A stretch of DNA of 64,000 nucleotides from an uncultured virus (IMG/VR IMGVR_UViG_3300043410_000754) (taxonomy: Duplodnaviria > Heunggongvirae > Uroviricota > Caudoviricetes): the IMG/VR virus record IMGVR_UViG_3300043410_000754; one strand, given 5' to 3'. The notes beneath the pieces were generated by a model, which saw only the letters and a list, made by a program, of their open reading frames with translations, searched no databases and was not told the DNA's origin. Shown in pieces: positions 32,328-61,496 of this stretch. Numbering within the stretch: the first letter of the stretch is position 1; each line of letters opens with the position of its first letter. Position numbers and translations under genes: made by a program.

Positions 32328-34140
32328 AGCTGTCTCCATGTCCAGATTCACAGTTGAGGGGTAACTCAGGAGCCCACTTGGGGCGGATGCGCATGCACAT
32401 CTCGACGAACTCCTGGGCGGTCTTGACCTCAGCTTCCGGCACCACGCAGGCAATGGCGTCATGGACAGTCATCACCACACGGTATTTCTTGGCAATCAGA
32501 AGCATCTGGTCGCCGATGATGATACGCGCAAGGGCTTGGCAGACGTTCTCGGTTACCTTCCCGCCGTAGATGCGGTTGGGGAGAGTGGCCTTGCCCTTCT
32601 TGGTGTCGTACACGAACTGGGTCTTGGCGCGACCGTTCTCGTCCATCTCGGTCCAGCGCAGGTTGGGGTACTTCAGATACAGGCCGTTAGGCAAGCGGAT
32701 TCCGTTTCTGCCCTCAACCTTCAACACGCCGTCGCGGCCCAGGTCCATGGTCTGGTTGCCGAGGATCGCGCCTAGCGCCCTGCCCGCCGTCTTCCAGAAC
32801 TCAGCAATCTTCGGGTACGTGCGTCGGTAGGTTTCAATAATGCGCTGGGCCTCCTCCAAGGATACGTCCACTCCAAAGTTCTTGAGTTGCGCCTGGAACT
32901 TCGCCGCACCCATACCGTAGCCCGCGCCAAGGATCGTAGTCTTGCCGACGAACCGTTCGTCTTTCGTAATAGCCGCAACAGGTTTGCCGTAGATAGCCGA
33001 AGCCATGATTCTGTAAACGTCCTCGCCACGATCAAATGCCTCCACCAAGTCATCTTGCCCAGCTAGCCATGCCAGCGTACGTGCTTCAATCTGAGATGAG
33101 TCCGAGTCGATCATCGTGTGCCCGATCGGGGGGATGATGGCGTACTTCAACGGAGACTGCCTCGGTAGGTTTTGCAGGTTTACCTTGTCATCGCCGCCCC
33201 ATCGTCCAGTGTGTGCCGCGTAGTATCGTAGGGGGACGGGTAGGGCACCGCGCCTTGCAATACCGATGAATCGCTCCGTGCGAGTTTCTTCAAGAGTGGA
33301 TTTAGTACCCAACCGCGCAGCGACCACGGCTTGAACGTGGGGGTCCTCATGATCGAGTAGAGCTTTGAACGCTTCATCCGTCTTAGAGAAGGCATAGGTT
33401 TCCTTGCCCGTGGTCGGGCTAATTTTCTTCGGGGGCTCAACCCCCAGCAGAGTGAGTAGTTGCGCCAGCTTCTGGTTGCTGTTGAGCACCTCGGTACTGT
33501 ACTGCCCCAGTAGCTTTTCTTTCTTGTCCTTGGTGATCAGCAGGTGGTGCGTCAGCATGCGCTCGTTCAGTTGCAAGACCGGCTCGGTGAACATGCGCAC
33601 GGTCAAGTCGATCAGCTTCAGCTCGGACTTCGGGAACCCTGCGGACATGTGCAGGAACAAGTCATACGTCAGGGCCACGTCATTCTTGCAGTAGTCACCG
33701 TACCGGGCAAGCTGGTCAGGCGGGAACTCCTCACGGCGTAGGCCGAACGCGTTGACTACCTCATCGCCCTTCTCCCCGAGCGCGTAGTACTCGGCGAGCA
33801 CTTTGAGGCTACCGCCCACTTCCGTGCCATGCAGGGCTCGGCCCATGCTCAGCGTGTCCAGCCAGACCTTCGGCTTGATACCGTACAGCCAGCTCAGGAT
33901 GGCACCGTCGAAAATCGCGTTGTGCGCTAAGGCTAGCGAATTGTCCCAATCGAACTTTTTGAGGAACTGGTACATGCTCGCGGCATCGCCGCTGTGCCAC
34001 TCCGGCTTGCCATCGTTTACCTGTACCGCAACGCCGATAACTTCAAAGCGTGGGTCGCGGATGTACTCCTCGGTCGTCTGGGTTTTGAACCCCAGGTCCT
34101 TGTCGTAGTACGTCTCGAAATCAACTGTGATCAGGTTCAT
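32314..34140 (-). CDS. DNA polymerase family A with 3'-5' exonuclease
   Basis: DFET, HNAIFD, TGRW, NLQNLP, DSSQIEAR, KTTILGAGYG, VHD. Confidence 0.95.
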   Translation of the reverse strand: MNLITVDFETYYDKDLGFKTQTTEEYIRDPRFEVIGVAVQVNDGKPEWHSGDAASMYQFLKKFDWDNSLALAHNAIFDGAILSWLYGIKPKVWLDTLSMGRALHGTEVGGSLKVLAEYYALGEKGDEVVNAFGLRREEFPPDQLARYGDYCKNDVALTYDLFLHMSAGFPKSELKLIDLTVRMFTEPVLQLNERMLTHHLLITKDKKEKLLGQYSTEVLNSNQKLAQLLTLLGVEPPKKISPTTGKETYAFSKTDEAFKALLDHEDPHVQAVVAARLGTKSTLEETRTERFIGIARRGALPVPLRYYAAHTGRWGGDDKVNLQNLPRQSPLKYAIIPPIGHTMIDSDSSQIEARTLAWLAGQDDLVEAFDRGEDVYRIMASAIYGKPVAAITKDERFVGKTTILGAGYGMGAAKFQAQLKNFGVDVSLEEAQRIIETYRRTYPKIAEFWKTAGRALGAILGNQTMDLGRDGVLKVEGRNGIRLPNGLYLKYPNLRWTEMDENGRAKTQFVYDTKKGKATLPNRIYGGKVTENVCQALARIIIGDQMLLIAKKYRVVMTVHDAIACVVPEAEVKTAQEFVEMCMRIRPKWAPELPLNCESGHGDSYGAC

Positions 34141-34682
34141 TTTTTCTTTCCGAGGCCCAGGAATCCGAAGAACCCGCCTGTCTGGTTAGGGCTAACATTG
34201 TTAGTGGTCGCGTAGATACCCCCCGGTTGCAGGTTGGTGATCTGCCCCAACCCCTGCTGACCCGATAAAGGCCCCAGATTCTGCGCACCCAGCATTTGCG
34301 CCTTCATTTGTGCCTGCATCTGCTGGTTGTAGATGTGTTGCTGGTTCTCCTCATCTTGGCGCTCGTAGAACTTGTCGTCGAACACCCGCTCCATGATGCG
34401 CCTGTCGAACTCGGTACGCCGCATGCTTTTGTACGCCGCAAGTAATGCGTCCTGCTCGGCGGGAGTCAGGTAGTGCCACTCGGGCCACTTCGCCAGGACC
34501 TCATCTTTGAGATGCCCGGTGATTATGCGTTCCAGCCTACTAGCAATCGCGCTGAACTTGTAAGCCCTCGTGCGGCGCATGTTCGCCAAGTCGTGTTCCT
34601 CGTCGGCGAAGTCCTCGGGGTTGGTCTGCATGCGCTCGATCAGGATACGCACCCCCGCGCAGAACTCTTGGGGGTCACTCAT
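34137..34682 (-). CDS. Hypothetical protein (paralogue of 34679-35029)
   Basis: GVRILIERMQTNPEDF. Confidence 0.65.
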   Translation of the reverse strand: MSDPQEFCAGVRILIERMQTNPEDFADEEHDLANMRRTRAYKFSAIASRLERIITGHLKDEVLAKWPEWHYLTPAEQDALLAAYKSMRRTEFDRRIMERVFDDKFYERQDEENQQHIYNQQMQAQMKAQMLGAQNLGPLSGQQGLGQITNLQPGGIYATTNNVSPNQTGGFFGFLGLGKKK

Positions 34683-35029
34683 TTATTCATCCGTTTGATC
34701 ATCTCGGCCTGGGCCGCGCTGATGACCAGCTTCTTGGGTTGCACGGGGGTACCCTCCATCTTGGCGATGGCGTTGCCGTAGTACGCCTCGGATTCCGCTT
34801 GCTGTTGCTCATCCACCTTCAGGATCGTTGCGGCGGCTTTAGCAGTGATCTCCATGCGGCGTACCTGCTTCAGCTGTTCGTGAATCGCAACCTTCTCAGT
34901 CTCGGTCATCACCTCGCGCATGACCTCTTTGAAAATCCACTTCCACCGACCACCATCGTCGAAGAACTCCTCGGGGTTGGACTTCATGCGGTTCAGGATA
35001 ATTTGGATTCCATCGTTAATGTCACTCAT
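34679..35029 (-). CDS. Hypothetical protein (paralogue of 34137-34682)
   Basis: GIQIILNRMKSNPEEF. Confidence 0.65.
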   Translation of the reverse strand: MSDINDGIQIILNRMKSNPEEFFDDGGRWKWIFKEVMREVMTETEKVAIHEQLKQVRRMEITAKAAATILKVDEQQQAESEAYYGNAIAKMEGTPVQPKKLVISAAQAEMIKRMNK

Positions 35030-35246
35030 CTTCATGCTCCAGTAGTTTCATCATGCCGGTTGCGGCTTCTTTGGTTAACCCTCGGGCGAGGGTCGTTGTG
35101 ATACCACCCTCTGACTTGAATATGCAGTACTTCCCGTATACCGACTTCATTTTGTAGGCTGGCTTGCCCTTGCTGTACTCCATGTCGAACAGAGAATTCA
35201 GTCCGGGCAGTAGTGATTTCAACACTTGGGCTCGGGATATTGCCAT
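35022..35246 (-). CDS. 74-aa protein whose N-terminus matches the major capsid N-terminus
   Basis: MAISRAQVLKSLLPGLNSLFDMEY vs MCP MAISRAQLLKELLPGLNALFGLEY; TGATG overlap with the upstream gene. Confidence 0.8.
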   Translation of the reverse strand: MAISRAQVLKSLLPGLNSLFDMEYSKGKPAYKMKSVYGKYCIFKSEGGITTTLARGLTKEAATGMMKLLEHEDE

Positions 35247-35548
35247 CACCCGCCCCGTGTCATGGCCCGGATGCGCTCCTCCAGGATGGGCAGGTTCTCC
35301 TCGTTGACGACCATACCGAACCCGCCAGCGTCACGGATGGCGCGTAGGTTCTTCAGTTGTAGTGCGGTGGCTTCGTTCTTCCCGGCTTTAGCTTCGATAG
35401 CCAGGAACTGCCCAGCGACACAGCAAAGGAAATCGGGCACACCGCTGTTCCCGAACCCCGTACCAATGGGCATGGCGTAGTACACGCCGTGTTCTTTCAA
35501 GATAGCCTTGATCTTTGTCTTGACCTTGGCCTCTGGTGTTGCCGCCAT
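35246..35548 (-). CDS. VRR-NUC nuclease
   Basis: PEAKVK, GVPD, IEAKA, LQ. Confidence 0.85.
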   Translation of the reverse strand: MAATPEAKVKTKIKAILKEHGVYYAMPIGTGFGNSGVPDFLCCVAGQFLAIEAKAGKNEATALQLKNLRAIRDAGGFGMVVNEENLPILEERIRAMTRGG

Positions 35549-35575
35549 CTGACTCTCCAGTTGATTTCTGGAATC

Positions 35576-35603
35576 AGTATAGCATATCGCTTTACACCGT
35601 CAA
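35576..35603 (-). promoter_or_regulatory. Sigma70-type promoter
   Basis: TTGACG-16-TATACT with extended TGn. Confidence 0.65.
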
Positions 35604-35607
35604 GCAA

Positions 35608-35633
35608 TAAAAAAGCCCGCACATGGCGGGCTT
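35608..35633 (-). terminator. Rho-independent terminator
   Basis: AAGCCCGC-loop-GCGGGCTT with U-run on the minus strand. Confidence 0.75.
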
Positions 35634-35817
35634 CGGGTTACCCCTAACATTGTTAGGGTGGGGTGGATAGATTCGTACCGGGACCCCAAGCTCCGGGCGG
35701 ATTTACTGGGTGCGCAAGGTTCTCCATCACGTGCAAAGGGGGCCTCACGAACCCCCCGCCTAGTAGCCCGCATCTATCTGACATCAGCTACAACGGCGGG
35801 ATATGCTAATACCCCCT

Positions 35818-36039
35818 TTACGAAATCACGTTAGGCACTACTCCGTACGCGGATCGCGTCCACAAGAGACGCTCCCCCGCAACGGCACCAAGTTTTTTCA
35901 GGTAGTCGGCTGAGTACGCCGTCCCACCTTTCCTGTACCCAGGGCCAACGAACACCGAGGCGTTGTCAAAGTGCGGCACGTACGTCACCTCGCCGAGCGT
36001 GTACACCGTGTACATTCCACGTTCTACGGAATCGTTCAT
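35818..36039 (-). CDS. Hypothetical protein
   Basis: ATGA overlap with the upstream gene. Confidence 0.55.
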   Translation of the reverse strand: MNDSVERGMYTVYTLGEVTYVPHFDNASVFVGPGYRKGGTAYSADYLKKLGAVAGERLLWTRSAYGVVPNVIS

Positions 36040-36671
36040 TCTGCGGCTCCCAGTTCACGCATCAGGTACCACATGGCCTTCTGCAAGTTCTCTTTGCGCT
36101 CGCCTTTGTGGTCGGCGCGAGTCACGTATTTCACTACGTTACCCAGGTTGTAGTTCAGGCCCTTGGCCTCGATGAAGTCGATCGTCTCGACCCCGCCAAC
36201 TTTGTAGTGCGGCGGGTGGTTCACCATGTCGGGCTTGATGGGCTTGTCGGACGTGACCGTAGCCACGGCTTTCCACTTGCCGTTCTTCTCCTCGTATTCG
36301 TTGCCCACGCCCTCGACGTTCATAAACTGTTTCGCGGCTTCACGTGCGGCTCGCTTCGCGGCCTTCACTGCTCGTGCCTTAGCCAGCAGATCGACCTTGG
36401 AATGGGGTGGCGGGGCAATGCCAGCCGCCTTCAGTTTACGCACGGCGGTACGTATTTTGTAGCTACGGGTAATGCTCACCTTGAGCATCTGCGCCAATTC
36501 GTCCGCTGAAATGTGGGGGCGACGGAGCATGATGCGCTGTGCGCGTTCAAGCTGGGCTTTCCCGGTTTCCTTGGGGGTGCGGGGGCTGTATCGGCGTTTT
36601 TGTTTCGGTGCCGTGTTAGCGGCGATGGTCAAATCGTTCATGGTTTGTGCAGTTGTAATTAAGTCAGTCAT
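36036..36671 (-). CDS. Protein with C-terminal DUF3310-like domain
   Basis: DMVNHPPHY..GGVETID..GNVVKYVTRA..K..NLQKAMWYL. Confidence 0.8.
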   Translation of the reverse strand: MTDLITTAQTMNDLTIAANTAPKQKRRYSPRTPKETGKAQLERAQRIMLRRPHISADELAQMLKVSITRSYKIRTAVRKLKAAGIAPPPHSKVDLLAKARAVKAAKRAAREAAKQFMNVEGVGNEYEEKNGKWKAVATVTSDKPIKPDMVNHPPHYKVGGVETIDFIEAKGLNYNLGNVVKYVTRADHKGERKENLQKAMWYLMRELGAAE

Positions 36672-36915
36672 GGTTAGCTCCATTGTTGTTGACGTATGCC
36701 GCCAGAATCTCTCTCATCTTTGCTTGCTTGTTTCCGGGGTGGTGTGCTTCAAAATAATCCATTACCTCCTTGCTCAATCTGATGCTGGTACAAAAAAGTG
36801 CGGGCTTTTTCCCAGGCCCGCGCCCCTTGCGTTTAACCACGGGTGGTCCCTTGATGTCGCACCGTGGGCAGGACTCTCCCGGCATCGGGTATCCACAGCC
36901 TACACAGAGCTTCAT
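36664..36915 (-). CDS. BrnA/DUF4415-like ribbon-helix-helix protein with N-terminal Zn ribbon
   Basis: GRGP..TSIRLSKEVMDYF..Q..MREIL; two CxxC. Confidence 0.55.
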   Translation of the reverse strand: MKLCVGCGYPMPGESCPRCDIKGPPVVKRKGRGPGKKPALFCTSIRLSKEVMDYFEAHHPGNKQAKMREILAAYVNNNGANHD

Positions 36916-36933
36916 AGCAGTGCCTCCCCAACG

Positions 36934-37185
36934 CTATCGCGTAACTTTTCCCGGTGCATACGCTCCAGTATCCTCCCGTCTACTCTCTCGAAAGGCCACC
37001 AAGAGTTCTCGGTTAGCTTCAAGATGATCTCGGCGTTCTTGCTCAAGTTCCGACTCCGGGATGACGACTTCTTTTGTTGTGAATTTGTGTCCGTTCGCAC
37101 ACTCTCTCCTTCGTTTGTACCCAAATGTGGGCGACCTACGCGTCTCATGCACGATCGTCCATACACCACACTCGGGGCATTTCAT
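36934..37185 (-). CDS. NrdR-like zinc-ribbon protein
   Basis: MKCPEC..ETR..RRRECANGHKFTTKE. Confidence 0.7.
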   Translation of the reverse strand: MKCPECGVWTIVHETRRSPTFGYKRRRECANGHKFTTKEVVIPESELEQERRDHLEANRELLVAFRESRREDTGAYAPGKVTR

Positions 37186-37475
37186 TTCGTCTCCAGACCC
37201 TTCATCGTCATGACGACTGCGAGCTGGTCGGCGATCGGTTGGTCTTCGTTCAGAATCCAGTACGTGGTAGTCCAGTCCGGGCCATGCGGGTTACGCTTGA
37301 ACGTACACACCTCCAGCACCTTGCCGTTCATCACCTGCAAAATACCGAACCGAGCATGCGGCATCTCGGGTTGTGACGATGCGTTCGTTTCTCCCGTCTC
37401 CAAACCCAATCGCATCTTCACGCGCTCGTCGCTGTCGTTGAATAGCCATTTTCTTATCCATCCGCGAATGTTCAT
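37182..37475 (-). CDS. Hypothetical protein
   Basis: ATGA overlaps. Confidence 0.55.
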   Translation of the reverse strand: MNIRGWIRKWLFNDSDERVKMRLGLETGETNASSQPEMPHARFGILQVMNGKVLEVCTFKRNPHGPDWTTTYWILNEDQPIADQLAVVMTMKGLETK

Positions 37476-37687
37476 TTCTTCATGCTCCTTATGAATTCTG
37501 CAAAACTAGCAATGGTGTCCTGACCAAAGGGGATCGTGAATTCCTCCAGGGCCTGGGCCACCTCCTCGATCACCTCGTTACGGTAAATGTCTAGCTCGTT
37601 GTCTAGGCGCACCATAACCTCTTTGACTTCTTTGCGTCCCAACTTGTGCTCCAATGCCTCAAAGGCTTCATCTTCTTCAGTTCTCAC
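37472..37687 (-). CDS. Hypothetical protein
   Basis: RNEVIEEVA motif; overlaps neighbours. Confidence 0.6.
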   Translation of the reverse strand: MRTEEDEAFEALEHKLGRKEVKEVMVRLDNELDIYRNEVIEEVAQALEEFTIPFGQDTIASFAEFIRSMKK

Positions 37688-38013
37688 AGGGCGTTACCTC
37701 TCTTGGCGCAAGGCCATACCGCTTTCAAAACTCGGTTCACCAGGATGTCCCCCGTCAGGTGTCGATCCGCAGGTGAGTTCTCCAGGTAGTTCTTCACCAT
37801 GTCGTTGATCTGCCCAGCCGTTGCGTTGGATGGGGCGCAATGCACTACACCAATACCCATGTCCGCGATGCCAGCGATGTACCCAAGGCCGTAGCCTTGG
37901 TTGAAGTATGAGGAGTCTTTCAGCAGACTCAGCAACTTGTTTCCGTCTTGGAACTCGGCTTGCGCCGACCCCATTGCAACCGTGGCTAACAATGTTAGTG
38001 CGAGGCGTTTCAT
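37684..38013 (-). CDS. Rap1a/Tai-like secreted protein
   Basis: Signal peptide MKRLALTLLATVAMGSAQA; GNKLL, GYIAGIAD, C-x-P, YLENSP, WPC. Confidence 0.7.
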   Translation of the reverse strand: MKRLALTLLATVAMGSAQAEFQDGNKLLSLLKDSSYFNQGYGLGYIAGIADMGIGVVHCAPSNATAGQINDMVKNYLENSPADRHLTGDILVNRVLKAVWPCAKRGNAL

Positions 38014-38483
38014 GTGTTCTTCTCCTTGAGTTTGGCTTCGATGGCGCGTATTGCCTGCATGGCCCAGTCGTACAGGGCATGGCCTCCAGATGGCGGAACT
38101 GAAAGTTGTCCAAGCACACCTGCAACCTCTTTCTCCGTCAGCCCAACCCATTCACGCTGTGGTTTGTTGGTAAGCAATTCAACAATACTGTTTGCGAGAT
38201 GTGTTCGCGTTGCGTTGTCGGTATATTTGTAGTTGTAATTGATGTGGACATAAACAAACTCGCCGCCAAGTCGAATGTCAACGCCGCCAAACAAATCGTA
38301 TCCGACCTCAATACCATTCGCCACTTGCGAAAATTTTATTGGAGGCATTTCCACCGGCTCCTGCTTCTCAGCCTGCTCTATGGCGTCCATCATCTCCGGT
38401 GTAATGCCGCACATCCAGCCATTGTCAGAAGGCCAGAACCTTAAAACGTAGGCTCCAATACGAATTTCTTTGAAGGCAGTCAT
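38010..38483 (-). CDS. Mosaic hypothetical protein
   Basis: AEKQEPV and PQREWVGLT..EAKLKEKN segments. Confidence 0.55.
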   Translation of the reverse strand: MTAFKEIRIGAYVLRFWPSDNGWMCGITPEMMDAIEQAEKQEPVEMPPIKFSQVANGIEVGYDLFGGVDIRLGGEFVYVHINYNYKYTDNATRTHLANSIVELLTNKPQREWVGLTEKEVAGVLGQLSVPPSGGHALYDWAMQAIRAIEAKLKEKNT

Positions 38484-38786
38484 ACTTCAATCCCCAAGTG
38501 CTTGTCTGCTTCGCGCAAGATTTGTTGCAACGCATCACGCATGCCGACCTTGTCTCCAACCACAAGCCCTGTTTCGGCTTCTTGTTTGATGCTTCGGATT
38601 ACTCGATCCCCATCCTGCTTTTCAGCCTGCTTCATGGCTTCAATGCTCATTCGCGTACCCCCATTAGTGCTACCAACCAACCCAACACCGCGCTTATCCA
38701 TGCGGCGGCTCGTCCAAGGTCTTTCTCCCACAGGGAGAACCCTGCGTTGATAAGGGCGATCAATACGGTGAACCCAAATACGAACT

Positions 38787-39333
38787 TCATTTCCTATCCT
38801 TCAAAGTTAAGAACGCTCCAAACCACAGCAGGAGAACAACGAACAACGTAGGCAACGCCAACCACACGGGTAGGAACTCCACAGCGGCCCCAGCCACAAA
38901 CGGCGCACCGATAACCACCCAAAAAGCGAATCGGTCCCTGCTCACCGTGCGGCTCCCAGGTTGCGAACCCATGCGGGCTCAGGTTCTTGGATGACGGGGG
39001 GCGTCATCTTCTCGCTCGGCGGGGTCCACCCGTACTTGCGCCACGTTGCTTGTACGTCAGCGCCGGAAGTCCACTTGTAGTCGGGGTGCCCCACGGGAAT
39101 CCAGGGCATCGTTAGTTTGGCTTCATTCATTTGTATTTACCCCATGTCGCCGCGCCGTCAATCAGCCCGTGCAGGTTCACAAGCCCCCCGAACAGAATGA
39201 CTCCGATGTATCGCGCAAGGGGCAACTCCCAGGCGCATGCCAGCATGCCACCAAACGAAACCCAGAACAGTACGGTTCGGGCTCGCTCGCTATTCAGCAG
39301 ATACTCAAACCCCTGGTACACAAACTTTTTCAT
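38787..39333 (-). CDS. Three small genes (38787-~38945, 38942-39130, 39127-39333), two with TM segments
   Basis: Overlapping short ORFs with hydrophobic stretches. Confidence 0.45.
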
Positions 39334-40184
39334 TCGCTTTTCTCCTCACTCGGCAAAACCACAAACGCGTCTTGGTCGGCTCTGAAACCAACCCCAGACA
39401 GATATTGCTTCGGCTCGACTAGCTTCAGCAGGCCCAGCTTCCGCTTCAAATCTTCAGGCAAGTCATCGTTGCTATGCCTAACAGTGTTATCCCCTTGCTT
39501 GACACTGTATATTGTATCACATCGTAACACAAACAATGCTTTGTCGTTGCGATACGCCGACTCAATTTCATCCATGTGCTTGAATTCTGTGTACAGCTCG
39601 TCTCGTTTCTCGATGGTATTGAACACTCTCACGTCCGTGTTCCGCATGTGCTCCACGAACGGACCCCACCCTACCGAAGCGGCGTACTCCATCAGCGCCT
39701 TCTCTACCACTTGTCTGGTTGAGTTGTACGCGCCGTACTTGTTCGACCGCAGGTTGTGCATTTCCTGGCTCGCCGCGTTCTCGGCGTCATTCATCAGCTC
39801 CTGTACAGTTTTACTGCTAAAGGTTTTCTTGACCATGGCTACGGCCTTGTCCACGCTCTCGGTCGAGTAGAAGCTACGCCGTTGCATCTTCGAGTCGATC
39901 CGGTCGTTGTGTACCTTGTACTTTAGGTTGCTGTTGCTGTACCCCACACGTGCATACGACACATGCCCAAGCTCCTCGTTGTCCTTGAATATACGCAGGA
40001 CCACGCCTGCATAGTTAAACCCTCCAAAGTTCGTGACCTTGAAGTGCCACAATGGTTTGTCCAGTAGCAACACATCCAGCACCGGCTTCAACCGTGGGTG
40101 TAGCGTTGGCTCCGCAGGTATGGGCCGGTTCTCCTCGGCGCTCGCCTCGACCCGGTTGTTGTTCTCATATCCAACTAGCTTCAT
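39330..40184 (-). CDS. Hypothetical protein
   Basis: 284 aa with AGGAG RBS. Confidence 0.7.
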   Translation of the reverse strand: MKLVGYENNNRVEASAEENRPIPAEPTLHPRLKPVLDVLLLDKPLWHFKVTNFGGFNYAGVVLRIFKDNEELGHVSYARVGYSNSNLKYKVHNDRIDSKMQRRSFYSTESVDKAVAMVKKTFSSKTVQELMNDAENAASQEMHNLRSNKYGAYNSTRQVVEKALMEYAASVGWGPFVEHMRNTDVRVFNTIEKRDELYTEFKHMDEIESAYRNDKALFVLRCDTIYSVKQGDNTVRHSNDDLPEDLKRKLGLLKLVEPKQYLSGVGFRADQDAFVVLPSEEKSE

Positions 40185-40194
40185 CTTCTTCTCC

Positions 40195-41049
40195 TTACCA
40201 CTCAAACTTCTTCAGAATGTCATCGACCTTGGCCTTCACATCGGCGCGGTAGTGTTTGTCCTCCTTGATCCCCTCCATCGTTACCCCTAACATTGTTAGC
40301 TCTACCTGTCGGCGGGCTTCTTCCAGCTTCGGATCGTTGGTGATGTTCAGCTTGGTCAGCAGGCCGCAAAGCTCCAGCGGGTTGGTAAGTAAAGAGTCGT
40401 AATAACGCTTCTTCGCATCATCCCCCTCAACATCAGTCAACTTTTTCGAGATAGCCGATAGCTCAGCATGCAGACGTTCCCACGGCTCGCGGCATGCCTC
40501 AGCCAGCTTGTCACGCTGTTGCGTCTCAAACTCTTGTACCAGTTCCTGCATATCCACGGCGGGCACATCCAGGCGAAAGTCCCCTGCCTCGGGTACGGGC
40601 TTAACGGTACGTCGGAACCCAAACTTGAGTCGGACCTCCTCGATCTCCGGGTAGTCCTCAGCCTTGTACAGCTTGCCCAGGTTGACCTGCGCGTCATTGA
40701 CCAGACGCGGGTACTCGTTGAAGAACGTGTCGCACATGTTGTTGAACTCATGCTCGTAGGCGTTCATGGCTTGCTTGTACTCCATGAATAACGCAGTCGG
40801 CAGTAGGCGCTCGCCCTTGTCAGCCCAGGGTAACGTGTGCTGGTTGTGGTACTGACGTACACGGGACGCAAAGCGCTCGATGTCCTTACGCAAGCTGGTA
40901 CCTGCGAATAGGTTTTTCTTGGTCTGCGCCGCACCAGGGAGCGCCCCGGCGTTCGCGTTGACCTGCTCGGTGGACTCTCGGTCGATCTTCGACGCAGGCC
41001 ACACGCTGATGTTCAGTTCCACTAACAATGCTGATGCGCTAATACTCAT
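40195..41049 (-). CDS. Helical protein, DUF3150-like
   Basis: HTLPW..G.RLLP, DYP motifs; near the AAA/vWA pair. Confidence 0.6.
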   Translation of the reverse strand: MSISASALLVELNISVWPASKIDRESTEQVNANAGALPGAAQTKKNLFAGTSLRKDIERFASRVRQYHNQHTLPWADKGERLLPTALFMEYKQAMNAYEHEFNNMCDTFFNEYPRLVNDAQVNLGKLYKAEDYPEIEEVRLKFGFRRTVKPVPEAGDFRLDVPAVDMQELVQEFETQQRDKLAEACREPWERLHAELSAISKKLTDVEGDDAKKRYYDSLLTNPLELCGLLTKLNITNDPKLEEARRQVELTMLGVTMEGIKEDKHYRADVKAKVDDILKKFEW

Positions 41050-41050
41050 A

Positions 41051-41260
41051 TCATTTCTCCAACAAAAGTTTCGCAAACCCCACCGCCATATTGCGATCAG
41101 GGAACCACTCCGTGAGGATGTCAAAGTCCTCTTGATCTCCAACGTACCGTCCGTTGGTCTTGACCACCGCCCACCGACCAGCGAGACACGCGATCCCATA
41201 CTCTCGCCCCCAGAAGTGGGGGCTACGTATCCAGTCAACCTCCGGTATCAGCTTTGCCAT
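41051..41260 (-). CDS. Small early protein (shared C-terminal motif family)
   Basis: Ends ILTEWFPDRNMAVGFAKLLLEK. Confidence 0.55.
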   Translation of the reverse strand: MAKLIPEVDWIRSPHFWGREYGIACLAGRWAVVKTNGRYVGDQEDFDILTEWFPDRNMAVGFAKLLLEK

Positions 41261-41684
41261 TCTCAATCCTCCATAGTTCTGACACTAGGTGACGCACCTC
41301 GTTCTCCACGTACTCCCACGTGCGGTACGTCTCATGATCCTGCCTGTACTGAAGGCTACTACCCACTGTGACCAAGCTGACCAACACACCCGGCACCAAG
41401 TCCCCCGCGTGCCCGCAGTCGAACCCGAAACACCACCACCCGCCGTCATCATGTGAGTACGTCAGCCCACCGTGTATCTTCACATCCACATCGTCGTACG
41501 TTTTCCCATACGCCGGGTGAGACTTCGCCACACTCACGTACCCATTCAGGTGCAAGAGCGTAGGGTGTCGGCTAATCCTGCATCGGTACCCAGTCTGGTC
41601 GTCCTCCCACTCGGCCTCGTTGGGCTCACCCTCCCAGGGTCTGTCCTGCACCAGCAGTTTCAGTTGTTGCTCTGGCTCTAACAT
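41235..41684 (-). CDS. Hypothetical protein
   Basis: HGGLTY..GFDCGH motif; ATG supplied by the palindrome. Confidence 0.7.
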   Translation of the reverse strand: MLEPEQQLKLLVQDRPWEGEPNEAEWEDDQTGYRCRISRHPTLLHLNGYVSVAKSHPAYGKTYDDVDVKIHGGLTYSHDDGGWWCFGFDCGHAGDLVPGVLVSLVTVGSSLQYRQDHETYRTWEYVENEVRHLVSELWRIENGKADTGG

Positions 41685-41686
41685 TG

Positions 41687-41905
41687 TTAGTCCTCCCATA
41701 GTTCCATCAACTTCAGTGTGCCCACCAACCCGTCATAGGTTAGGTGTCTGTGTACTTCTTCGCTGTTATTGGGGGAATACCCAACGTAGTACACCCGCAG
41801 GTTGTACCGCCACGGCCTCCACCACACCCGGCTGACTGTCCACCCATACAATGGCGATGGATGGTCTAGCGACACCATGTACATATCCCCGCAACGAATT
41901 TTCAT
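41687..41905 (-). CDS. Small early protein (motif family)
   Basis: Stop supplied by the palindrome. Confidence 0.55.
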   Translation of the reverse strand: MKIRCGDMYMVSLDHPSPLYGWTVSRVWWRPWRYNLRVYYVGYSPNNSEEVHRHLTYDGLVGTLKLMELWED

Positions 41906-42150
41906 CCGTCCTCCGGTTGTGTTAGCAGTTTCACGTATCCCTTCGCCGCTTCTTCACTCAGGCCCGTGTACAGCGGCTCCTTGGTGTACGGCTTTGTGGT
42001 GGTCCGAGTTACCTTGACCACCGAGTACGTATTGCAAGGCTCCCAATTACCCCGGTGTTCCTTGTGTACCTCATACGTAACTACCCAGCTGTCCTGCCCA
42101 AAGATTCCTCTCGGGTCAGTCCACCCATGGTTGAACCTCTCGGTCGCCAT
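41902..42150 (-). CDS. Small early protein (motif family)
   Basis: Ends LYTGLSEEAAKGYVKLLTQPEDG. Confidence 0.6.
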   Translation of the reverse strand: MATERFNHGWTDPRGIFGQDSWVVTYEVHKEHRGNWEPCNTYSVVKVTRTTTKPYTKEPLYTGLSEEAAKGYVKLLTQPEDG

Positions 42151-42401
42151 CAGTCCTTCTCCGGCTTCCCCGCCAGCTTCGCCATGCGATAGATGTCGTC
42201 GCTGATGATCTGCATGGAATAGCTCCGGTCGTTGGGGTACACGTGGTACGTGTAGTCGTCGGTCATGCCCTTGGCCTCACGCTTTTCCTTGGACCAATAC
42301 TTGTCCTCGAACCGCTCGGCGCTCGAAAGAATCTCAGACAACTGCAACGCTTTGTCGTTCTTCAACACCACCTTCTGGTAGCCCAAGTCAATCACAATCA
42401 T
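42150..42401 (-). CDS. Hypothetical protein
   Basis: AGGAG RBS; MIVIDLG... Confidence 0.6.
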   Translation of the reverse strand: MIVIDLGYQKVVLKNDKALQLSEILSSAERFEDKYWSKEKREAKGMTDDYTYHVYPNDRSYSMQIISDDIYRMAKLAGKPEKD

Positions 42402-42411
42402 GTCGCTCTCC

Positions 42412-43602
42412 TTAGCGTTCGATATGGATGGTTTTGCCGTTCGGGGCGGTGACTTCATTGCCACCAGTAATGCACCACAGTACAGGGCAGACCCAATTAC
42501 CACCCCAATCGGAGCCCACATACCCATCTGTGAGAACAATGACGCACTCTGGATCAAGTTTCTTCTCCTCCATATACGATGTGATACAGCTCGGTGATGT
42601 ACCGCCACCGCCCTTGGGCTGTGTTGACTGGATGATCGAGCTAACATTGTTAGACTCGTATGTCTCGTGACCTGCCACCTCGCTGTCCCAGTACAGCAGG
42701 TCCACGCACTCGGGGTTAACGTCCTCGGCGATACCCTTCACCTCGGATAAGAACTCGGCAAGCTCAGGCCCACCGATGGAACCCGATGTGTCGATTGCAA
42801 CCACGATGTGACCCACGCGCTCACCGATCATGCTGGGCATGTACGTACCCGTAGACAGGAAACGCCGATTGACTCGACGCCACGAACTCTTGTCCAGCGC
42901 ACGACACGATGCCTTGACGAACTCACGCAACACCTCGCGCCAGTCCACCTTGGGTGCCATCAACTCCTCAAGCTCACGGCTCATGCCACCCGCACCCTTA
43001 CCCGCAAGTTTCTGGTGCGCCATCTGACCCTGACGGATTGCTTGGTCGATCTCTTTGGCGAGTTGCTTCTTCTCCTCCTCGCTCATGCCCTGCGCATCGG
43101 CCCAGTCATGGAAGTCCATGCCATCGCCATCACCGCTATCGGGATTCTCTTGCTTGAGAATGTCGAACACTTGCTTGCTGTTCATGCCACGGAACCGCTC
43201 GTCGATCAGGCCCATGGGCTCGCCCTTCTTCGGACCCTCGGTCCATCGGGGCATCTGAATCAACCGACCATCGGGGTCCATGTCATTCAGCATCAGGTTG
43301 ATCACATAGTCACACGCCGCGTTCGCAAGCTGGTGGTTCTCGTCGTGCATCTTGCGCCACGTAGTCAGGTGCCGGAACATCTTGTGTCCAGCCTCGTGGG
43401 CCACCACAAAGTTAAGCTCGGCATCCTTCAAGCGCTTGACGAACTCGCGCCCGTACCGCTCGTCACGTCCATTAGTTGCCGCCGTGGGGATGTCATCCAC
43501 CACACGGGTCTTGCCCACCATCAACACACCAGACAGTAGCGCGAACTTCGGGCTACGCATCAGGCTGATCTTGGCTTTCTGTACTTTGCGTTCCTCTAAC
43601 AT
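42412..43602 (-). CDS. Metallopeptidase + vWA domain protein (DUF2201-like)
   Basis: TAATNG, HEAGH, NAACDYVIN; MIDAS DTSGS, GGGT, LTDG. Confidence 0.85.
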   Translation of the reverse strand: MLEERKVQKAKISLMRSPKFALLSGVLMVGKTRVVDDIPTAATNGRDERYGREFVKRLKDAELNFVVAHEAGHKMFRHLTTWRKMHDENHQLANAACDYVINLMLNDMDPDGRLIQMPRWTEGPKKGEPMGLIDERFRGMNSKQVFDILKQENPDSGDGDGMDFHDWADAQGMSEEEKKQLAKEIDQAIRQGQMAHQKLAGKGAGGMSRELEELMAPKVDWREVLREFVKASCRALDKSSWRRVNRRFLSTGTYMPSMIGERVGHIVVAIDTSGSIGGPELAEFLSEVKGIAEDVNPECVDLLYWDSEVAGHETYESNNVSSIIQSTQPKGGGGTSPSCITSYMEEKKLDPECVIVLTDGYVGSDWGGNWVCPVLWCITGGNEVTAPNGKTIHIER

Positions 43603-43604
43603 TG

Positions 43605-44559
43605 TTAGTCCTTCATCAGTTTGTTCAAACCCTTGGCGAGATTCGCCGCGCTAACCTTCGTGTACTTCGTGGCGATCAACCGACTGTTCTGCCACACCTC
43701 ATACCTGTATGTAACCTTCGGCCTTGCCTTGGTCCCTCCACTTGACACCTCCCGCACCCATGCAGGCTCGTACCTGTACGTCTCTCTCCCCGTTGTGTCA
43801 TACGATACGTACGCCATGTTGCCTCCTCGCATCCTCCGTTATGGACAACAGCATCACCAGAGTCGCCTCGACCTGCGCCGGGTCGTTACTCTCCACCATC
43901 ACGGTACGGCTCCGCTCCCCACCGAGTTGCCCCTCCCACTTCACGATGGTCGCTCGGTACTGGAAGAAGTCAGTCATGTCCTCCGCATAGCTCAGCATGC
44001 GCCGCTCCATCAGCAGTTGGTAGAACACCGGCAGTCCAGACACCTGCTTACGCAAGTACGCATACATGTCCTGCACCTTGTCCCACCGTGATGGGATGTC
44101 TGCCCACGCTTCCTTCGTTTTGATCTCTGCGTATAACATTGTTAGCCCTCCGGTGGTAGCAACAGCTTCACCATGTCGTTCAGTTCACTCAGGTCAGGTG
44201 TCTCGTGGACCACCGGATACCGTAGCATCTCTGGTCCATACGCTCCGGTCTTAGTGTGCAACGTGTACGTGCGCACTCCCTTGTCCACGAACGTACCCAC
44301 CATGTACCCAGCGCGGTTCAGCCTTTCCGTGGTGTCGGAACGGATAAGCCAATCACCCTGGAAACTAATCGGTGTCACTCTCAGCCTCCACTTGCTTGTT
44401 GAAAAAGATGGCTAGGCGCTGGGCCTCGGCCTGATCGGTATGTTCAGAGACAACGCGACTACCGTTACCCCATCCGCTACCAATCAGAAGCTCGTACACA
44501 AAGGGACGGACGTAGTTATCGCCCCCCTTCTTGATACGCACCCAGGCCCACTCTTTCAC
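43605..44559 (-). CDS. Four small early genes (43605-~43817, 43798-44139, 44142-44378, 44365-44559)
   Basis: Tightly packed ORFs between the AAA and vWA genes; palindromes at junctions. Confidence 0.55.
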
Positions 44560-45620: not shown

Positions 45621-45696
45621 TTCTGATTCTCCAATGATGCCCCATAACATTGTTAGGGCGGGTTACACAAACTAACACTCGAACTTTTTTGATTTA

Positions 45697-57549: not shown

Positions 57550-57746
57550 CGTTTGATTCCCGTGCGTTCGCGCACGTGCAAAAAGAAATCGCGAGAACTC
57601 GGCAAGAGCAGGTGGAATTCCTTGCCGCAGGAAGCGCAAAGACGTACGACGAGTACCAAAAAATCTGCGGAGTGATCCGGGGTCTTAACCTCGCAGATTC
57701 CACCATAAACGACCTCGTGCAAAGAATGGAAACATCTGATGAGTGA
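57546..57746 (+). CDS. Small helical protein
   Basis: EYQKICGVIRGL. Confidence 0.65.
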   Translation: MTFDSRAFAHVQKEIARTRQEQVEFLAAGSAKTYDEYQKICGVIRGLNLADSTINDLVQRMETSDE

Positions 57747-58158: not shown

Positions 58159-59181
58159 ATGGCAACCCAAGCTAAGTACGACGAAGGGGAAGACTTCGAG
58201 TTCCCCGACGAGAAGGAAGAGAAGGCGAAGGCCAAGGCAAAAGCCAAGGACGACGACTTTGAAGTCGATATTGAAGACGACACCCCGGTCGCGGACCGTG
58301 GCCGCAAGCCCTCCAAGGAGCCCGTTGAGGACCCCACGGAAGACGAGCTTGCAAGCTACGACGAGAAGGTCCAGAACCGGATCAAGAAATTCACTCGTGG
58401 ATATCACGATGAGCGACGTGCCAAGGAGCAAGCCCTGCGTGAGCGGGAGGCTGCTGAGTCGTTTGCCCGTCAGGTGTTCGACGAGAACAAGAAGCTGAAA
58501 GAGCAGCTGTCTGTCGGTAGCAAGGCATACGTAGAGACGGCAAAAAGCGCCGCCGAAGCCGAGCTGGAAGCCGCCCGCGAGAAGTACCGCAAGGCGTACG
58601 AGACCGCCGACCCTGACGCACTCGTCAAGGCGCAAGAGGACATCGCCCGTGCCACGGTGAAAGCCGAGCGTGCTGGCCACCTGCAGCCGGTGGAGATGGA
58701 GGACGACAAGGAGTTCCGCATCCCTCAGAGCCAACAAGAGCAGGAAGCTCCTCGCGTGAGCCGCCGTACCCAGTCGTGGTTGGATAACAACTCGGACTGG
58801 TTCGGGAAAGATGACGAAATGACGATGGCTGCGATGGGTCTTGACAAGAAGTTCCAGAAGCAGTATGGTCCCGACTACGTTGGTACACCTGAGTACTTTC
58901 AGGCTATCGACAAAACAATGCGCAAGCGTTTTCCTGAGTATTTTGAAGATGCTCAGAGCGATGAGGATGACGAGCCGCCTCGAAAGAAAAGAGCTGAACC
59001 GGCAGATGAGGATGAACCTCCGCGCCGTGCCTCAAAAACCGCTACGGTCGTGGCTCCGGCCTCACGTAGCACACCGCCTAGTCGTGTACGACTGAAGGCA
59101 TCCGAAGCAGCGATCGCTCGCCGACTTGGGGTCCCTTTGGAAGAATACGCAAAACAGGTTGCTAAGCTAGAAAGAAGTTAA
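58159..59181 (+). CDS. Probable scaffolding protein
   Basis: Acidic coiled coil; C-terminal IARRLGVPLEEYAK; upstream of the capsid gene. Confidence 0.65.
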   Translation: MATQAKYDEGEDFEFPDEKEEKAKAKAKAKDDDFEVDIEDDTPVADRGRKPSKEPVEDPTEDELASYDEKVQNRIKKFTRGYHDERRAKEQALREREAAESFARQVFDENKKLKEQLSVGSKAYVETAKSAAEAELEAAREKYRKAYETADPDALVKAQEDIARATVKAERAGHLQPVEMEDDKEFRIPQSQQEQEAPRVSRRTQSWLDNNSDWFGKDDEMTMAAMGLDKKFQKQYGPDYVGTPEYFQAIDKTMRKRFPEYFEDAQSDEDDEPPRKKRAEPADEDEPPRRASKTATVVAPASRSTPPSRVRLKASEAAIARRLGVPLEEYAKQVAKLERS

Positions 59182-60584: not shown

Positions 60585-61496
60585 ATGGCAATTTCACGCG
60601 CACAACTACTCAAAGAACTCCTGCCCGGTCTTAATGCACTGTTTGGCCTTGAGTACGCCCGTTACGGCGAGGAGCACAAGGAAATCTACGAAACCGAGAC
60701 CTCGGAGCGTAGCTTTGAAGAGGAAACCAAGCTGTCTGGCTTCTCCGCCGCTCCGGTGAAGAACGAAGGCTCTGCGATTGCTTATGACAACGCGCAGGAA
60801 GCGTGGACGACTCGCTACAACCACGAGACCATCGCCCTGGGTTTCTCGATCACTGAAGAAGCGATCGAAGATAACCTGTACGACAGCTTGTCTGCTCGCT
60901 ACACCAAGGGTCTGGCCCGTGCCATGGCATACACCAAGCAGGTGAAAGCCGCTTCTGTCCTGAACAACGGCTTCAGCTCTGCCTTCACCGGCGGCGACGG
61001 CGTTGCTCTGTTCAGTGCAGCCCACCCCCTGGTGAGCGGCGGTACCAACGCTAACACCCCCACAACCCAAGCCGACCTGAACGAGACTTCCCTGGAAGCC
61101 GCCGTTATTCAGATCGCCGGTTGGACGGATGAACGTGGTCTGCTGATCGCTGCCAAGCCCAAGAAGCTGGTAATCCCGCCTGCTCTGCAATTCGTTGCTA
61201 CTCGTCTGCTGGAAACCGAACTCCGTGTCGGTACCAACAACAACGACATCAACGCGATCAAGAGCAATGGTGCGATCCCCGATGGTTACACCATCAACCA
61301 CTTCTTGACCGACAACAACGCATGGTTCCTGACGACTGACGTTCCCAACGGTCTGAAGCACTTCGTTCGTACCCCGCTGCAAAACAGCATGGACGGCGAC
61401 TTCGACACCGGTAACGTCCGTTACAAGGCCCGTGAGCGTTACAGCTTCGGCTGGTCGGACCCTCTGGGTGTGTTCGGGTCTTCGGGCTCGTTCTGA
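60585..61496 (+). CDS. Major capsid protein (Mu gpT-like HK97 fold)
   Basis: GGDGVALFSAAHP, PKKLVIPPAL, AWFL, RYSFGWSDP; followed by a terminator. Confidence 0.9.
   Translation: MAISRAQLLKELLPGLNALFGLEYARYGEEHKEIYETETSERSFEEETKLSGFSAAPVKNEGSAIAYDNAQEAWTTRYNHETIALGFSITEEAIEDNLYDSLSARYTKGLARAMAYTKQVKAASVLNNGFSSAFTGGDGVALFSAAHPLVSGGTNANTPTTQADLNETSLEAAVIQIAGWTDERGLLIAAKPKKLVIPPALQFVATRLLETELRVGTNNNDINAIKSNGAIPDGYTINHFLTDNNAWFLTTDVPNGLKHFVRTPLQNSMDGDFDTGNVRYKARERYSFGWSDPLGVFGSSGSF

What the first reader, a model, noticed from the sequence alone, without database searches (positions are those of the whole stretch)
35022..35246. Small early gene carries a copy of the phage's own major capsid N-terminus (possible decoy)
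Seen: the first 24 residues match the MCP (60585-60656) at 19/24, yet 9 of those identical residues use different codons (e.g. ATA/ATT, TCC/TCA, CGA/CGC, GGA/GGT), which points to selection on the peptide rather than a recent DNA duplication. The rest is unrelated to the MCP and ends in the shared motif LARGLTKEAATGMMKLL. It lies on the opposite strand, 25 kb away, just downstream of a sigma70 promoter. Established: some defence systems sense capsid proteins (CapRel-SJ46; Lit via the T4 Gol peptide). Inference: a capsid-mimic decoy made before the real capsid, or a regulator of capsid assembly or of competing phages.
Basis: partly seen in the sequence, partly recalled or inferred. Interest (0 to 1): 0.9.

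Follow-up and report, generated by a model that had tools for sequence, protein, structure and literature searches.

The report
Early phage protein mimicking capsid N-terminus
A small optional gene of an uncultured tailed phage starts with an old, selectively kept copy of the first 24-26 residues of the phage's own major capsid protein, and a sister gene copies the capsid protein's tail end, which points to deliberate self-mimicry of the capsid whose purpose (decoy or assembly control) is still untested.

Summary
ORF 35022-35246(-), 74 aa, matches the window's own HK97-fold major capsid protein (MCP, 60585-61496) at 19 of the first 24 residues (BLASTP E 2e-11; family-profile comparison E 2.9e-13). 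Identical residues share codons no more often than codon usage predicts (10 seen, 8.0 expected). The best of 79 foreign MCP 5' ends is 58/72 nt identical. So the copy is old and is kept at peptide level.

It is a real gene family: about 85 distinct small proteins, always sitting between a VRR-NUC-like nuclease gene and DNA polymerase (44/44 loci), with dN/dS about 0.2. The predicted fold is helix, three strands, helix. No Pfam, PHROG or clear structural match was found.

The gene is optional: present in 4 and absent from 5 near-complete genomes with 81-94% identical MCPs. Its N-terminal module is swapped between near-identical bodies: 49/85 are MCP-like and 33/85 are not.

A second small ORF (41902-42150) has a related C-terminal helix and copies the MCP C-terminal motif. 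Related phages carry MCP spine-helix copies in neighbouring accessory proteins.

Function is untested. I favour a competitive mimic of unassembled MCP, either an immune or satellite decoy (0.35) or a scaffold-binding assembly modulator (0.25).

The parts
35022..35246 (-). sORF-N: 74-aa CDS (stop at 35022-35024), the finding itself
   Evidence: ORF list. 19 homologues in the protein database, 44 viral loci and 46 representatives, all 49-95 aa. dN/dS 0.18-0.25. No Pfam, PHROG or PADLOC hit.
35169..35246 (-). Codons 1-26: copy of the MCP N-arm (predicted helix alpha1, residues 5-26)
   Evidence: BLASTP E 2e-11. hhalign of family against MCP family: 98% probability, E 2.9e-13, 28 columns. AF2 helix 5-26. 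Among 49 MCP-like members: P14 49/49, F20 49/49, R5 48/49, L12 and L16 47/49.
35034..35159 (-). Residues 30-71: three strands plus C-terminal helix, the conserved body of the family (YGKYxIY ... TTLAxGLxKExAxGMMKLL)
   Evidence: Alignments A2 and A3. AF2 pLDDT 88-92 over this part. Only weak fold matches: best VIA Z 5.0, Foldseek E >= 0.08.
60585..61496 (+). Major capsid protein, 303 aa, HK97 fold
   Evidence: Pfam Phage_capsid_4 and Mu-like_gpT. PHROG major head protein. Foldseek probability 1.0 to HK97, T1, SU10 and phiXacJX1 capsids and to encapsulins.
60585..60662 (+). MCP residues 1-26, the N-arm that sORF-N copies
   Evidence: Predicted helix 5-33. 17 invariant columns between residues 3 and 27 across 60 MCPs of 66-93% identity.
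61428..61478 (+). MCP residues 282-298, the C-terminal motif that sORF-C copies
   Evidence: Predicted strands 278-290 and 296-299. Conserved block in alignments A6 and A7.
41902..42150 (-). sORF-C: 82-aa CDS whose C-terminal helix is related to that of sORF-N
   Evidence: Family HMM E 0.0036. BLASTP E 3e-4. hhalign 88.5% probability, E 2.7e-6. 11 homologues.
42097..42147 (-). sORF-C residues 2-18: copy of MCP residues 282-298
   Evidence: 10/17 identical, E 3e-6. hhalign 96% probability, E 3.9e-9. G9, D12, P13, R14, G15, F17 and G18 invariant in 11 homologues.
35246..35548 (-). VRR-NUC-like endonuclease gene, first gene of the unit; its stop codon overlaps the sORF-N ATG
   Evidence: PHROG endonuclease E 3e-14. 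Sequence. Precedes the small gene in 44/44 loci. The name VRR-NUC is my recall.
35576..35634 (-). Terminator-like hairpin (35634-35612) followed by a sigma70-like promoter (35603-35576)
   Evidence: Consensus scan, 10/12 matches with a TG extension. These are pattern matches only.
34137..35035 (-). Two paralogous unknown genes (118 aa and 181 aa) between sORF-N and the DNA polymerase gene; the first overlaps the sORF-N stop
   Evidence: Relatives of this family carry MCP spine-helix-like or C-terminal-like tails.
58159..59181 (+). Scaffold-like head-module protein, 340 aa. Its last ~32 residues (about 59083-59178) are the best-conserved block. It is a candidate partner of the MCP N-arm.
   Evidence: Alignment with five cultured relatives: 22-34% identity overall, with a conserved C-terminal block. 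The role is inferred from position and composition and was not tested.

Best explanation
sORF-N is a real, optional early/middle-operon protein made of two modules. The body is a small module of three strands and a helix. The N-terminal helix is an old copy of the capsid protein's N-arm, held to the MCP sequence by selection on the peptide. I read it as a competitive mimic of unassembled MCP: it presents the N-arm, and sister or neighbouring proteins present the spine helix and the C-terminal strand, to a factor that recognises newly made capsid protein. The most likely such factor is a host immune sensor or a capsid-hijacking satellite, which would be occupied or blinded before and while the real MCP accumulates. 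Shown here: the copy, its age, purifying selection, the two-module build, the optional distribution, and the copies of other MCP segments. Inferred: that the protein binds anything at all, the identity of the partner, and the decoy outcome.
For: 1. The copy is significant.
2. It is old and selected as a peptide. Same-codon counts among identical residues, observed against expected from codon usage, are 10/8.0, 8/7.3, 6/6.4 and 3/4.8 in four genomes. The best foreign MCP 5' end is 58/72 nt identical among 79.
3. Residues with no obvious role in a plain amphipathic helix are kept as in the MCP: R5 48/49, P14 49/49, G15 41/49.
4. Ten distant members keep an MCP-like N-terminus (14-22 identical residues) while their bodies are barely recognisable.
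5. The gene is optional. Four near-complete genomes have it. Five with MCPs 81-93% identical lack it, and the nuclease gene is directly followed by the next gene family. Five cultured relatives also lack it.
6. It evolves faster than its neighbours: 43-58% identity against 65-74% for DNA polymerase.
7. N-terminal modules are swapped between near-identical bodies. P0016 against P0003 or P0005 has 42/45 identical body residues but 4 against 22 or 19 N-arm identities.
8. Only MCP segments are copied. These are sORF-C (MCP 282-298), spine-helix copies in L257/L258 and in the G003 p142 tail, and a C-terminal-like motif in L033/L037 p170.
9. The copied segments are among the most conserved MCP blocks.
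10. Host sensors that bind MCP monomers are in print. Passages of bioRxiv 10.64898/2026.01.04.697583 describe Avs7/Dsr1 binding a newly synthesised MCP monomer, helped by EF-Tu. CapRel and Lit/Gol are my recall.
Against: No partner is known, and the host is unknown. No RNA or protein evidence of expression was obtained. 33 of 85 members have no MCP-like N-terminus. In G004 and G005 the copy has decayed (13/25 and 6/24) although the MCP is unchanged, so mimicry is not needed for every family member. A copy of a trigger could just as well set off a sensor as block it. I found no precedent for a capsid-segment decoy in phages. AF2 packs the helix into one compact fold with the body, so it need not be a free arm. 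The spine-helix and p170 matches are modest (E 1e-3 to 0.4 within their ORF sets).
Confidence: 0.35

Rival explanations
1. Assembly modulator. The N-arm copy binds what the MCP N-arm binds in the procapsid, namely the conserved C-terminal helix block of the phage's own scaffold-like protein. This would titrate or time scaffold-MCP engagement, or cap MCP subunits.
For: In P22 and 80alpha procapsids the scaffold's C-terminal helices dock on the coat protein's N-arm helix (passages read in PMC9965877, and PMC5644958). The window's scaffold-like protein has its best-conserved block at the C-terminus. The MCP N-arm is invariant. MCP residues 5-33 and sORF-N residues 5-26 are both predicted helical. 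[quoted passage not shown] Copies of the N-arm, spine helix and an A-domain strand could therefore all belong to one inner-surface site.
Against: The gene is absent from 5 of 9 near-complete genomes with nearly the same MCP and from 5 cultured relatives, so assembly does not need it. It sits in the replication operon, not the head module. Late MCP would vastly outnumber it. Modular swapping and fast evolution are unusual for assembly factors.
Confidence: 0.25
2. Structural co-option without mimicry. An old illegitimate recombination fused the MCP 5' end to a small strand-helix gene, and the helix is kept only because it packs on the sheet of the new fold.
For: AF2 gives one compact helix-strand-strand-strand-helix unit (pLDDT 83). 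Many members have unrelated but similarly amphipathic N-termini. In G004 and G005 the copy has drifted. dN/dS of the N-terminal part (0.25) is no lower than that of the body (0.18).
Against: This does not explain why R5, P14 and G15 stay as in the MCP. It does not explain why distant members keep the N-arm better than the body. It does not explain why only MCP, and only its most conserved blocks, are copied repeatedly in at least two carrier families.
Confidence: 0.2
3. Capsid-targeted cargo. The N-arm copy works like a capsid-targeting sequence that brings the small body into procapsids, to be delivered into the next host.
For: The N-arm faces the capsid interior and the scaffold in the model phages read. 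T4 internal proteins use a short N-terminal targeting peptide (my recall).
Against: No prohead protease was recognised in the head module by Pfam or PHROG. The gene is in the replication operon. There are no virion proteomics. sORF-C and the spine-helix copies do not fit an N-terminal targeting signal.
Confidence: 0.08
4. Chance match or non-coding ORF.
For: None beyond the short length of the match.
Against: E 2e-11. The family is conserved, with fixed synteny in 44/44 loci. dN/dS is about 0.2. Purine-rich ribosome-site-like stretches lie before the start codons. There is no Rfam hit.
Confidence: 0.02

Closest known systems
SaPI1 CpmB competing with the phage 80alpha scaffolding protein (PMC5644958, passages read)
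   Same: A small protein copies a short helical motif that belongs to the interface between the capsid N-arm and the scaffold, and it competes at that interface.
   Different: CpmB is satellite-encoded and copies the scaffold side (a C-terminal helix and hook). sORF-N is phage-encoded, copies the capsid side, and sits in a replication operon. Its binding has not been shown.
MCP segments or monomers as immune triggers: Avs7/Dsr1 (bioRxiv 10.64898/2026.01.04.697583, passages read); CapRel-SJ46 and Lit/Gol (my recall)
   Same: These show that host factors read conserved parts of newly made HK97-fold capsid proteins, and that (for Gol, recalled) a short MCP segment can be sufficient as a ligand.
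   Different: Those are host sensors and their triggers. No phage-encoded copy of a trigger segment that blocks them is described in what I searched.
T4 capsid-targeting sequence of internal proteins (my recall)
   Same: A short N-terminal peptide is shared between otherwise unrelated small phage proteins and is linked to the head.
   Different: The T4 peptide is not a copy of the MCP and is cut by the prohead protease. No protease was recognised here, and the segment here is 24-26 residues of MCP sequence.
Small strand-strand-strand-helix and helix-strand-strand-strand-helix folds: chains 3bid, 2k7i and 6q2z, and dsRBDs
   Same: The order of secondary-structure elements is the same. VIA Z is 3.8-4.4 over residues 26-74. 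dsRBD chains appear among Foldseek hits at E 0.08-0.6.
   Different: The scores are in the range of common arrangements. There is no Pfam hit in any of 44 members at E <= 10 for dsrm or DUF1508. That the three chains belong to the YegP/UPF0339 family is my recall, not a tool result.
Protein mimics used by phages against defence (Ocr and other DNA mimics; my recall)
   Same: The general logic is a small early protein imitating a molecular surface to occupy a host factor.
   Different: Those imitate DNA. Here the imitated object would be the phage's own capsid protein.

Membership tests
HK97-fold capsid protein paralogue (such as a vertex or minor capsid protein) | Full HK97 fold (N-arm, E-loop, P and A domains) alignable along the MCP | tested here: not met
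   The protein is only 74 aa. Only 26-28 columns align with the MCP. The MCP HMM matches residues 2-30 only.
dsRBD (Pfam dsrm) | Match to the family profile | tested here: not met
   No dsrm hit in any of the 44 members at E <= 10.
dsRBD (Pfam dsrm) | Helix-strand-strand-strand-helix fold superposable on solved dsRBDs | tested here: inconclusive
   The order of elements is the same. Foldseek hits to RNase III, HYL1, Staufen and TARBP2 dsRBDs have E 0.08-0.6, TM 0.26-0.36 and rmsd 6-14 A.
YegP/UPF0339 (DUF1508)-like small domain | Profile match and fold match | tested here: inconclusive
   No Pfam hit. VIA Z 3.8-4.4 to 3bid_A, 2k7i_B and 6q2z_B over residues 26-74. The family label of those chains is my recall.
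T4-type capsid-targeting-sequence cargo | A prohead protease in the head module that removes the targeting peptide | tested here: inconclusive
   No protease family was found among head-module proteins by Pfam or PHROG. Two head-module proteins (159 aa and 295 aa) remain unassigned.
T4-type capsid-targeting-sequence cargo | Presence of the protein in procapsids or virions | not testable with these tools
   This needs proteomics of particles.
Scaffold mimic (CpmB-like) | Similarity to the scaffold's capsid-binding C-terminus | tested here: not met
   In the early-against-late screen, sORF-N hit only the MCP and not the scaffold-like protein 58159-59181.
Known defence-system proteins (PADLOC) | Profile match | tested here: not met
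   No hit for sORF-N, sORF-C or their three neighbours. No library of anti-defence proteins was available.

The most novel reading that the evidence does not exclude
This very abundant phage clade carries a changeable set of early accessory proteins, on at least two carrier domains, that each display a copy of one conserved segment of the phage's own capsid protein (N-arm, spine helix or C-terminal strand). Together they would act as decoys that blind host or satellite factors which recognise unassembled capsid protein. That would be a self-mimicry counter-defence not described before.
Probability: 0.3. Interest if true: 0.92.

Novelty: categorically new. Interest (0 to 1): 0.8.

Why it matters
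Capsid proteins are now known to be prime targets of bacterial immune sensors, yet the only well-known phage answer is to mutate the capsid. Here a phage keeps separate small genes that copy exactly the capsid segments it cannot afford to change. If these copies are decoys, they define a new class of counter-defence. They would also point to the capsid epitopes that sensors read in a phage clade with at least 8000 MCP clusters in public data. If they instead act on the scaffold, they are a new optional layer of assembly control. Either way, the finding gives a simple recipe for finding more such genes: search early accessory ORFs with the phage's own structural-protein profiles.

Tried and rejected
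- **Complex prediction.** MCP (alignment A7) plus sORF-N (A3) gave no verdict (score 0.00, controls not run). This is no evidence either way. The scaffold C-terminus and sORF-C could not be tried because the cap is one job.
- **Rfam.** No hit in 34000-43000.
- **Pfam, PHROG and PADLOC.** Nothing for sORF-N or sORF-C.
- **ESM Atlas.** Best scores were 0.83-0.85, below the level at which hits mean anything.
- **PDB sequence search with the MCP.** No hit.
- **Fold searches of the sORF-N model.** No convincing match.
- **Co-variation of the small N-terminus with its own MCP.** Not testable, because the MCP N-arm is invariant in all 5 paired genomes and nearly so in 60 MCPs.
- **Does the non-MCP 'type B' N-terminus copy another protein?** No match in its own genome (G005) and none among 50,697 phage records.
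- **Recent gene conversion or a foreign DNA donor.** Rejected.
- **Tree of the body domain** (80 rows; 6 rows dropped as MCP fragments or truncated, 3 more without the hairpin motif). It gave at least 19 changes of N-terminal class, against 23-28 in the 10 label shuffles I printed out of 200. The roughly 45-column tree is too weak to carry weight, so I rely on the near-identical pairs.
- **megablast of 33000-38000 against phage records.** No match.

Full report
**What the window is.**
The 64-kb window is nearly a whole tailed-phage genome. Late genes lie on the plus strand (terminase, portal, head and tail modules). Early and middle genes lie on the minus strand from about 24 to 52 kb. Its MCP (60585-61496) hits Pfam Phage_capsid_4 and Mu-like gpT. 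Its AF2 model has an HK97 fold, with Foldseek probability 1.0 to HK97, T1, SU10 and phiXacJX1 capsids and to encapsulins. The nearest cultured phages are Pag-Yong1/MinM2/Pra-JY27 (MCP 72% identical), pelagiphages HTVC023P and HTVC027P, DSL-LC04, and roseophages CRP-901/902. The MCP family is very abundant: 8000 of 8000 scored clusters reached E <= 1e-10, and the best 120 were 92-100% identical.

**The observation.**
ORF 35022-35246(-) encodes 74 aa.
- Its first 24 residues match the MCP's first 24 at 19 positions (BLASTP E 2e-11).
- The two 72-nt stretches are 53/72 identical, and 9 of the 19 identical residues use different codons.
- I screened 124 early minus-strand ORFs against 49 late plus-strand ORFs. 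Only two hits were below E 1e-3: this pair, and ORF 41902-42150 against the MCP C-terminus.

**It is a gene.**
- Nineteen homologues of 70-81 aa were found in the 5.8-billion-protein collection.
- Forty-four loci were found in viral contigs.
- A profile search over 1.84 billion representatives gave 46 hits, all 49-95 aa, with no fused form. Four of them are MCP N-terminal fragments, which I set aside.
- In 44 of 44 loci the gene lies directly after a VRR-NUC-like nuclease gene and before DNA polymerase, with zero to three copies of an unknown gene family in between.
- In the window its ATG overlaps the nuclease stop codon, and the next gene overlaps its own stop codon.
- A terminator-like hairpin and a sigma70-like promoter lie upstream of the nuclease gene.
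- Among 18 members with DNA and an MCP-like N-terminus, 88 of 153 pairs were usable and 65 were saturated. Median dN/dS was 0.25 for codons 2-24 and 0.18 for codons 30-70.

**Anatomy.**
AF2 on the 44-row alignment gave mean pLDDT 82.9. The elements are helix 5-26, strands 30-36, 39-46 and 49-57, and helix 59-71. The invariant residues lie in the body: Y31, Y37-G38-K39, A62, G64, M66-K67 and L69. No Pfam, PHROG or PADLOC family matches. Fold searches give only weak resemblances: dsRBD-like order of elements at Foldseek E 0.08-0.6, and small strand-strand-strand-helix proteins at VIA Z 3.8-5.0 over residues 26-74. The body is therefore a generic small domain of unknown function, and the MCP-like part is the added N-terminal helix.

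**Age and selection of the copy.**
- The family profile aligns with the MCP family profile over 28 columns (98% probability, E 2.9e-13).
- In the window and in three related genomes whose small protein is MCP-like, I counted how many identical residues also share a codon. Observed against expected from each genome's codon usage: 10/8.0, 8/7.3, 6/6.4 and 3/4.8.
- Against 79 foreign MCP 5' ends, the small gene's first 72 nt are at best 58/72 identical (median 50; own MCP 53).
- Synonymous sites are therefore saturated and there is no recent DNA donor. The peptide has been held.
- Among the 49 MCP-like members, P14 and F20 are kept in 49, R5 in 48, L12 and L16 in 47, Y24 in 43, and G15 in 41. These same positions are invariant in 60 MCPs of 66-93% identity.
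- A Pro-Gly pair and an arginine kept inside a predicted helix argue for the same specific constraint as in the MCP, not just amphipathicity.

**The copy is not universal and not essential.**
- Of 85 distinct family members (89 sequences minus the 4 MCP fragments), 49 share at least 13 of 26 residues with the MCP N-arm. Three are intermediate and 33 are not MCP-like; many of those carry a second recurrent N-terminus.
- That second type matches nothing else in its own genome and nothing among cultured phages.
- All five paired genomes have the same MCP N-arm. The small protein's identity to it is 19/24, 21/24, 20/24, 13/25 and 6/24.
- Near-identical bodies carry different N-termini. P0016 against P0003 or P0005 has 42/45 identical body residues. 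P0017 against P0006 has 40/45.
- Conversely, ten distant members keep 14-22 N-arm identities with barely recognisable bodies.
- Four near-complete genomes carry the gene. Five others, with MCPs 81-93% identical to the window's, do not: the nuclease gene is followed directly by the next gene family.
- Five cultured relatives also lack it.

**The wider pattern.**
Its C-terminal helix is related to that of sORF-N.
- Its residues 2-18 match MCP residues 282-298 at 10/17 (E 3e-6). At the family-profile level the match has 96% probability and E 3.9e-9.
- The motif is nearly invariant in its 11 homologues.
- It is 71-82% identical to MCP C-termini of the wider clade. That scan found no further true homologue in IMG/VR.
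- I scanned ORFs of related genomes and loci with an MCP profile and found further copies.
  - Two members of a distant branch of the small family (L257, L258) start with a segment aligned to MCP 93-117, the spine helix (HMM E 2e-3; BLASTP E 2e-4; hhalign E 5.4e-5).
  - The gene after sORF-N in G003 (= L006-L008, 142 aa) ends with a segment aligned to MCP 89-124 (HMM E 1e-3 among 829 ORFs; hhalign E 2.6e-5).
  - L011 and L022/23 have weaker versions of that tail (E about 0.4).
  - L033/L037 p170 holds a C-terminal-like motif (E 0.09; hhalign E 1.3e-4).
- These last matches are modest and were followed only partly.
- In every screen the copied protein was the MCP, and the copied pieces were among its conserved blocks.

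**Mechanism.**
- What is shown: a two-module optional early protein whose N-terminal module is held to the MCP N-arm sequence in most lineages.
- What follows from published structures: in P22 and 80alpha the N-arm helix lines the inner face of the procapsid and is the docking site of the scaffold's C-terminal helices. On maturation it turns into an arm that reaches a neighbouring subunit (PMC9965877 and PMC5644958, passages read).
- The window's scaffold-like protein has its best-conserved block at its C-terminus.
- A copy of the N-arm should therefore compete for whatever reads the N-arm of unassembled MCP.
- I rank a host or satellite factor first (0.35). The gene is optional, fast-evolving and modular, and sits in an early/middle operon. 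Internal and C-terminal MCP segments are also copied. Sensors of MCP monomers exist (bioRxiv 10.64898/2026.01.04.697583, passages read).
- I rank the phage's own scaffold second (0.25), plain structural co-option third (0.2), and capsid-targeted cargo fourth (0.08).
- The one complex prediction allowed (MCP with sORF-N) gave no verdict and counts for nothing.

**Comparison with what is known.**
I found no description of phage genes that copy segments of their own capsid protein. The searches were full-text searches. Only listings and abstracts were seen, except for the passages noted above. The nearest analogue in logic is SaPI1 CpmB, which copies the scaffold side of the same interface. By family, the protein belongs to nothing curated.

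**Verdict.**
The finding is real, wider than reported, and of unknown function. It is strange enough to deserve bench work.

Noticed in passing
window 41902-42150 (-): An 82-aa ORF whose residues 2-18 copy MCP residues 282-298 and whose C-terminal helix is related to that of the finding's ORF. It has 11 homologues with a nearly invariant motif. It is absent from G002-G005 and G017-G021.
   Followed up: yes
L007:3231-3656 (= G003, the gene after the small ORF); also L011:3237-3665, L022:3641-4084, L033:1927-2436: Members of the unknown gene family that follows the small ORF end in segments resembling the MCP spine helix (MCP 89-124), or in L033/L037 the MCP C-terminal motif (MCP 274-301). E-values range from 1e-3 to 0.4 within 829 ORFs.
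   Followed up: partly
L257:1302-1550 and L258 (distant branch of the small family); L252-L254 and L277: Small proteins with the same hairpin-and-helix body but a roughly 45-residue N-terminal extension. In L257/L258 the start of that extension aligns with the MCP spine helix (93-117). They sit at another early locus, upstream of the DUF3310 gene.
   Followed up: partly
window 34679-35035 (-), residues 98-108: The tail of the 118-aa neighbour reads VQPKKLVISAA, against MCP 190-200 AKPKKLVIPPA (7/11 identical; hhalign E 0.059, probability 0.9%). On its own this is not significant.
   Followed up: partly
window 43605-43832, 48263-48472, 50054-50245 (all -): Three more small ORFs give weak matches (E 0.7-0.9) to the body of the small-protein families. 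None has an N-terminus that matches a late protein. They may be further members of a broad strand-helix class.
   Followed up: partly
L019:1264-1650: In frame, just upstream of the small gene's ATG, lies a second, degenerate copy of the N-arm-like peptide (…VSRVQLLKELLHELEELFA), which suggests duplication or recombination at this module boundary.
   Followed up: no
L037:2950-3366: The small gene is fused in frame to the following gene: its C-terminal helix is cut short and continues into the neighbour's sequence.
   Followed up: no
window 42412-43602 and 44556-45650 (-): A DUF2201 gene (putative metallopeptidase plus VWA-like domain) and an AAA ATPase gene lie next to sORF-C. Their role is unknown.
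   Followed up: no
window 57739-58149 (+): A 136-aa head-module protein gives a weak Cpn10/GroES match (E 0.0019, below the Pfam cut-off). It is syntenic with genes annotated as co-chaperonin GroES in five cultured relatives. This hints that MCP folding depends on chaperonin.
   Followed up: partly
L012:4901-5421: An inverted second copy of the nuclease and small genes sits at the end of this contig. It is probably an assembly artefact.
   Followed up: no
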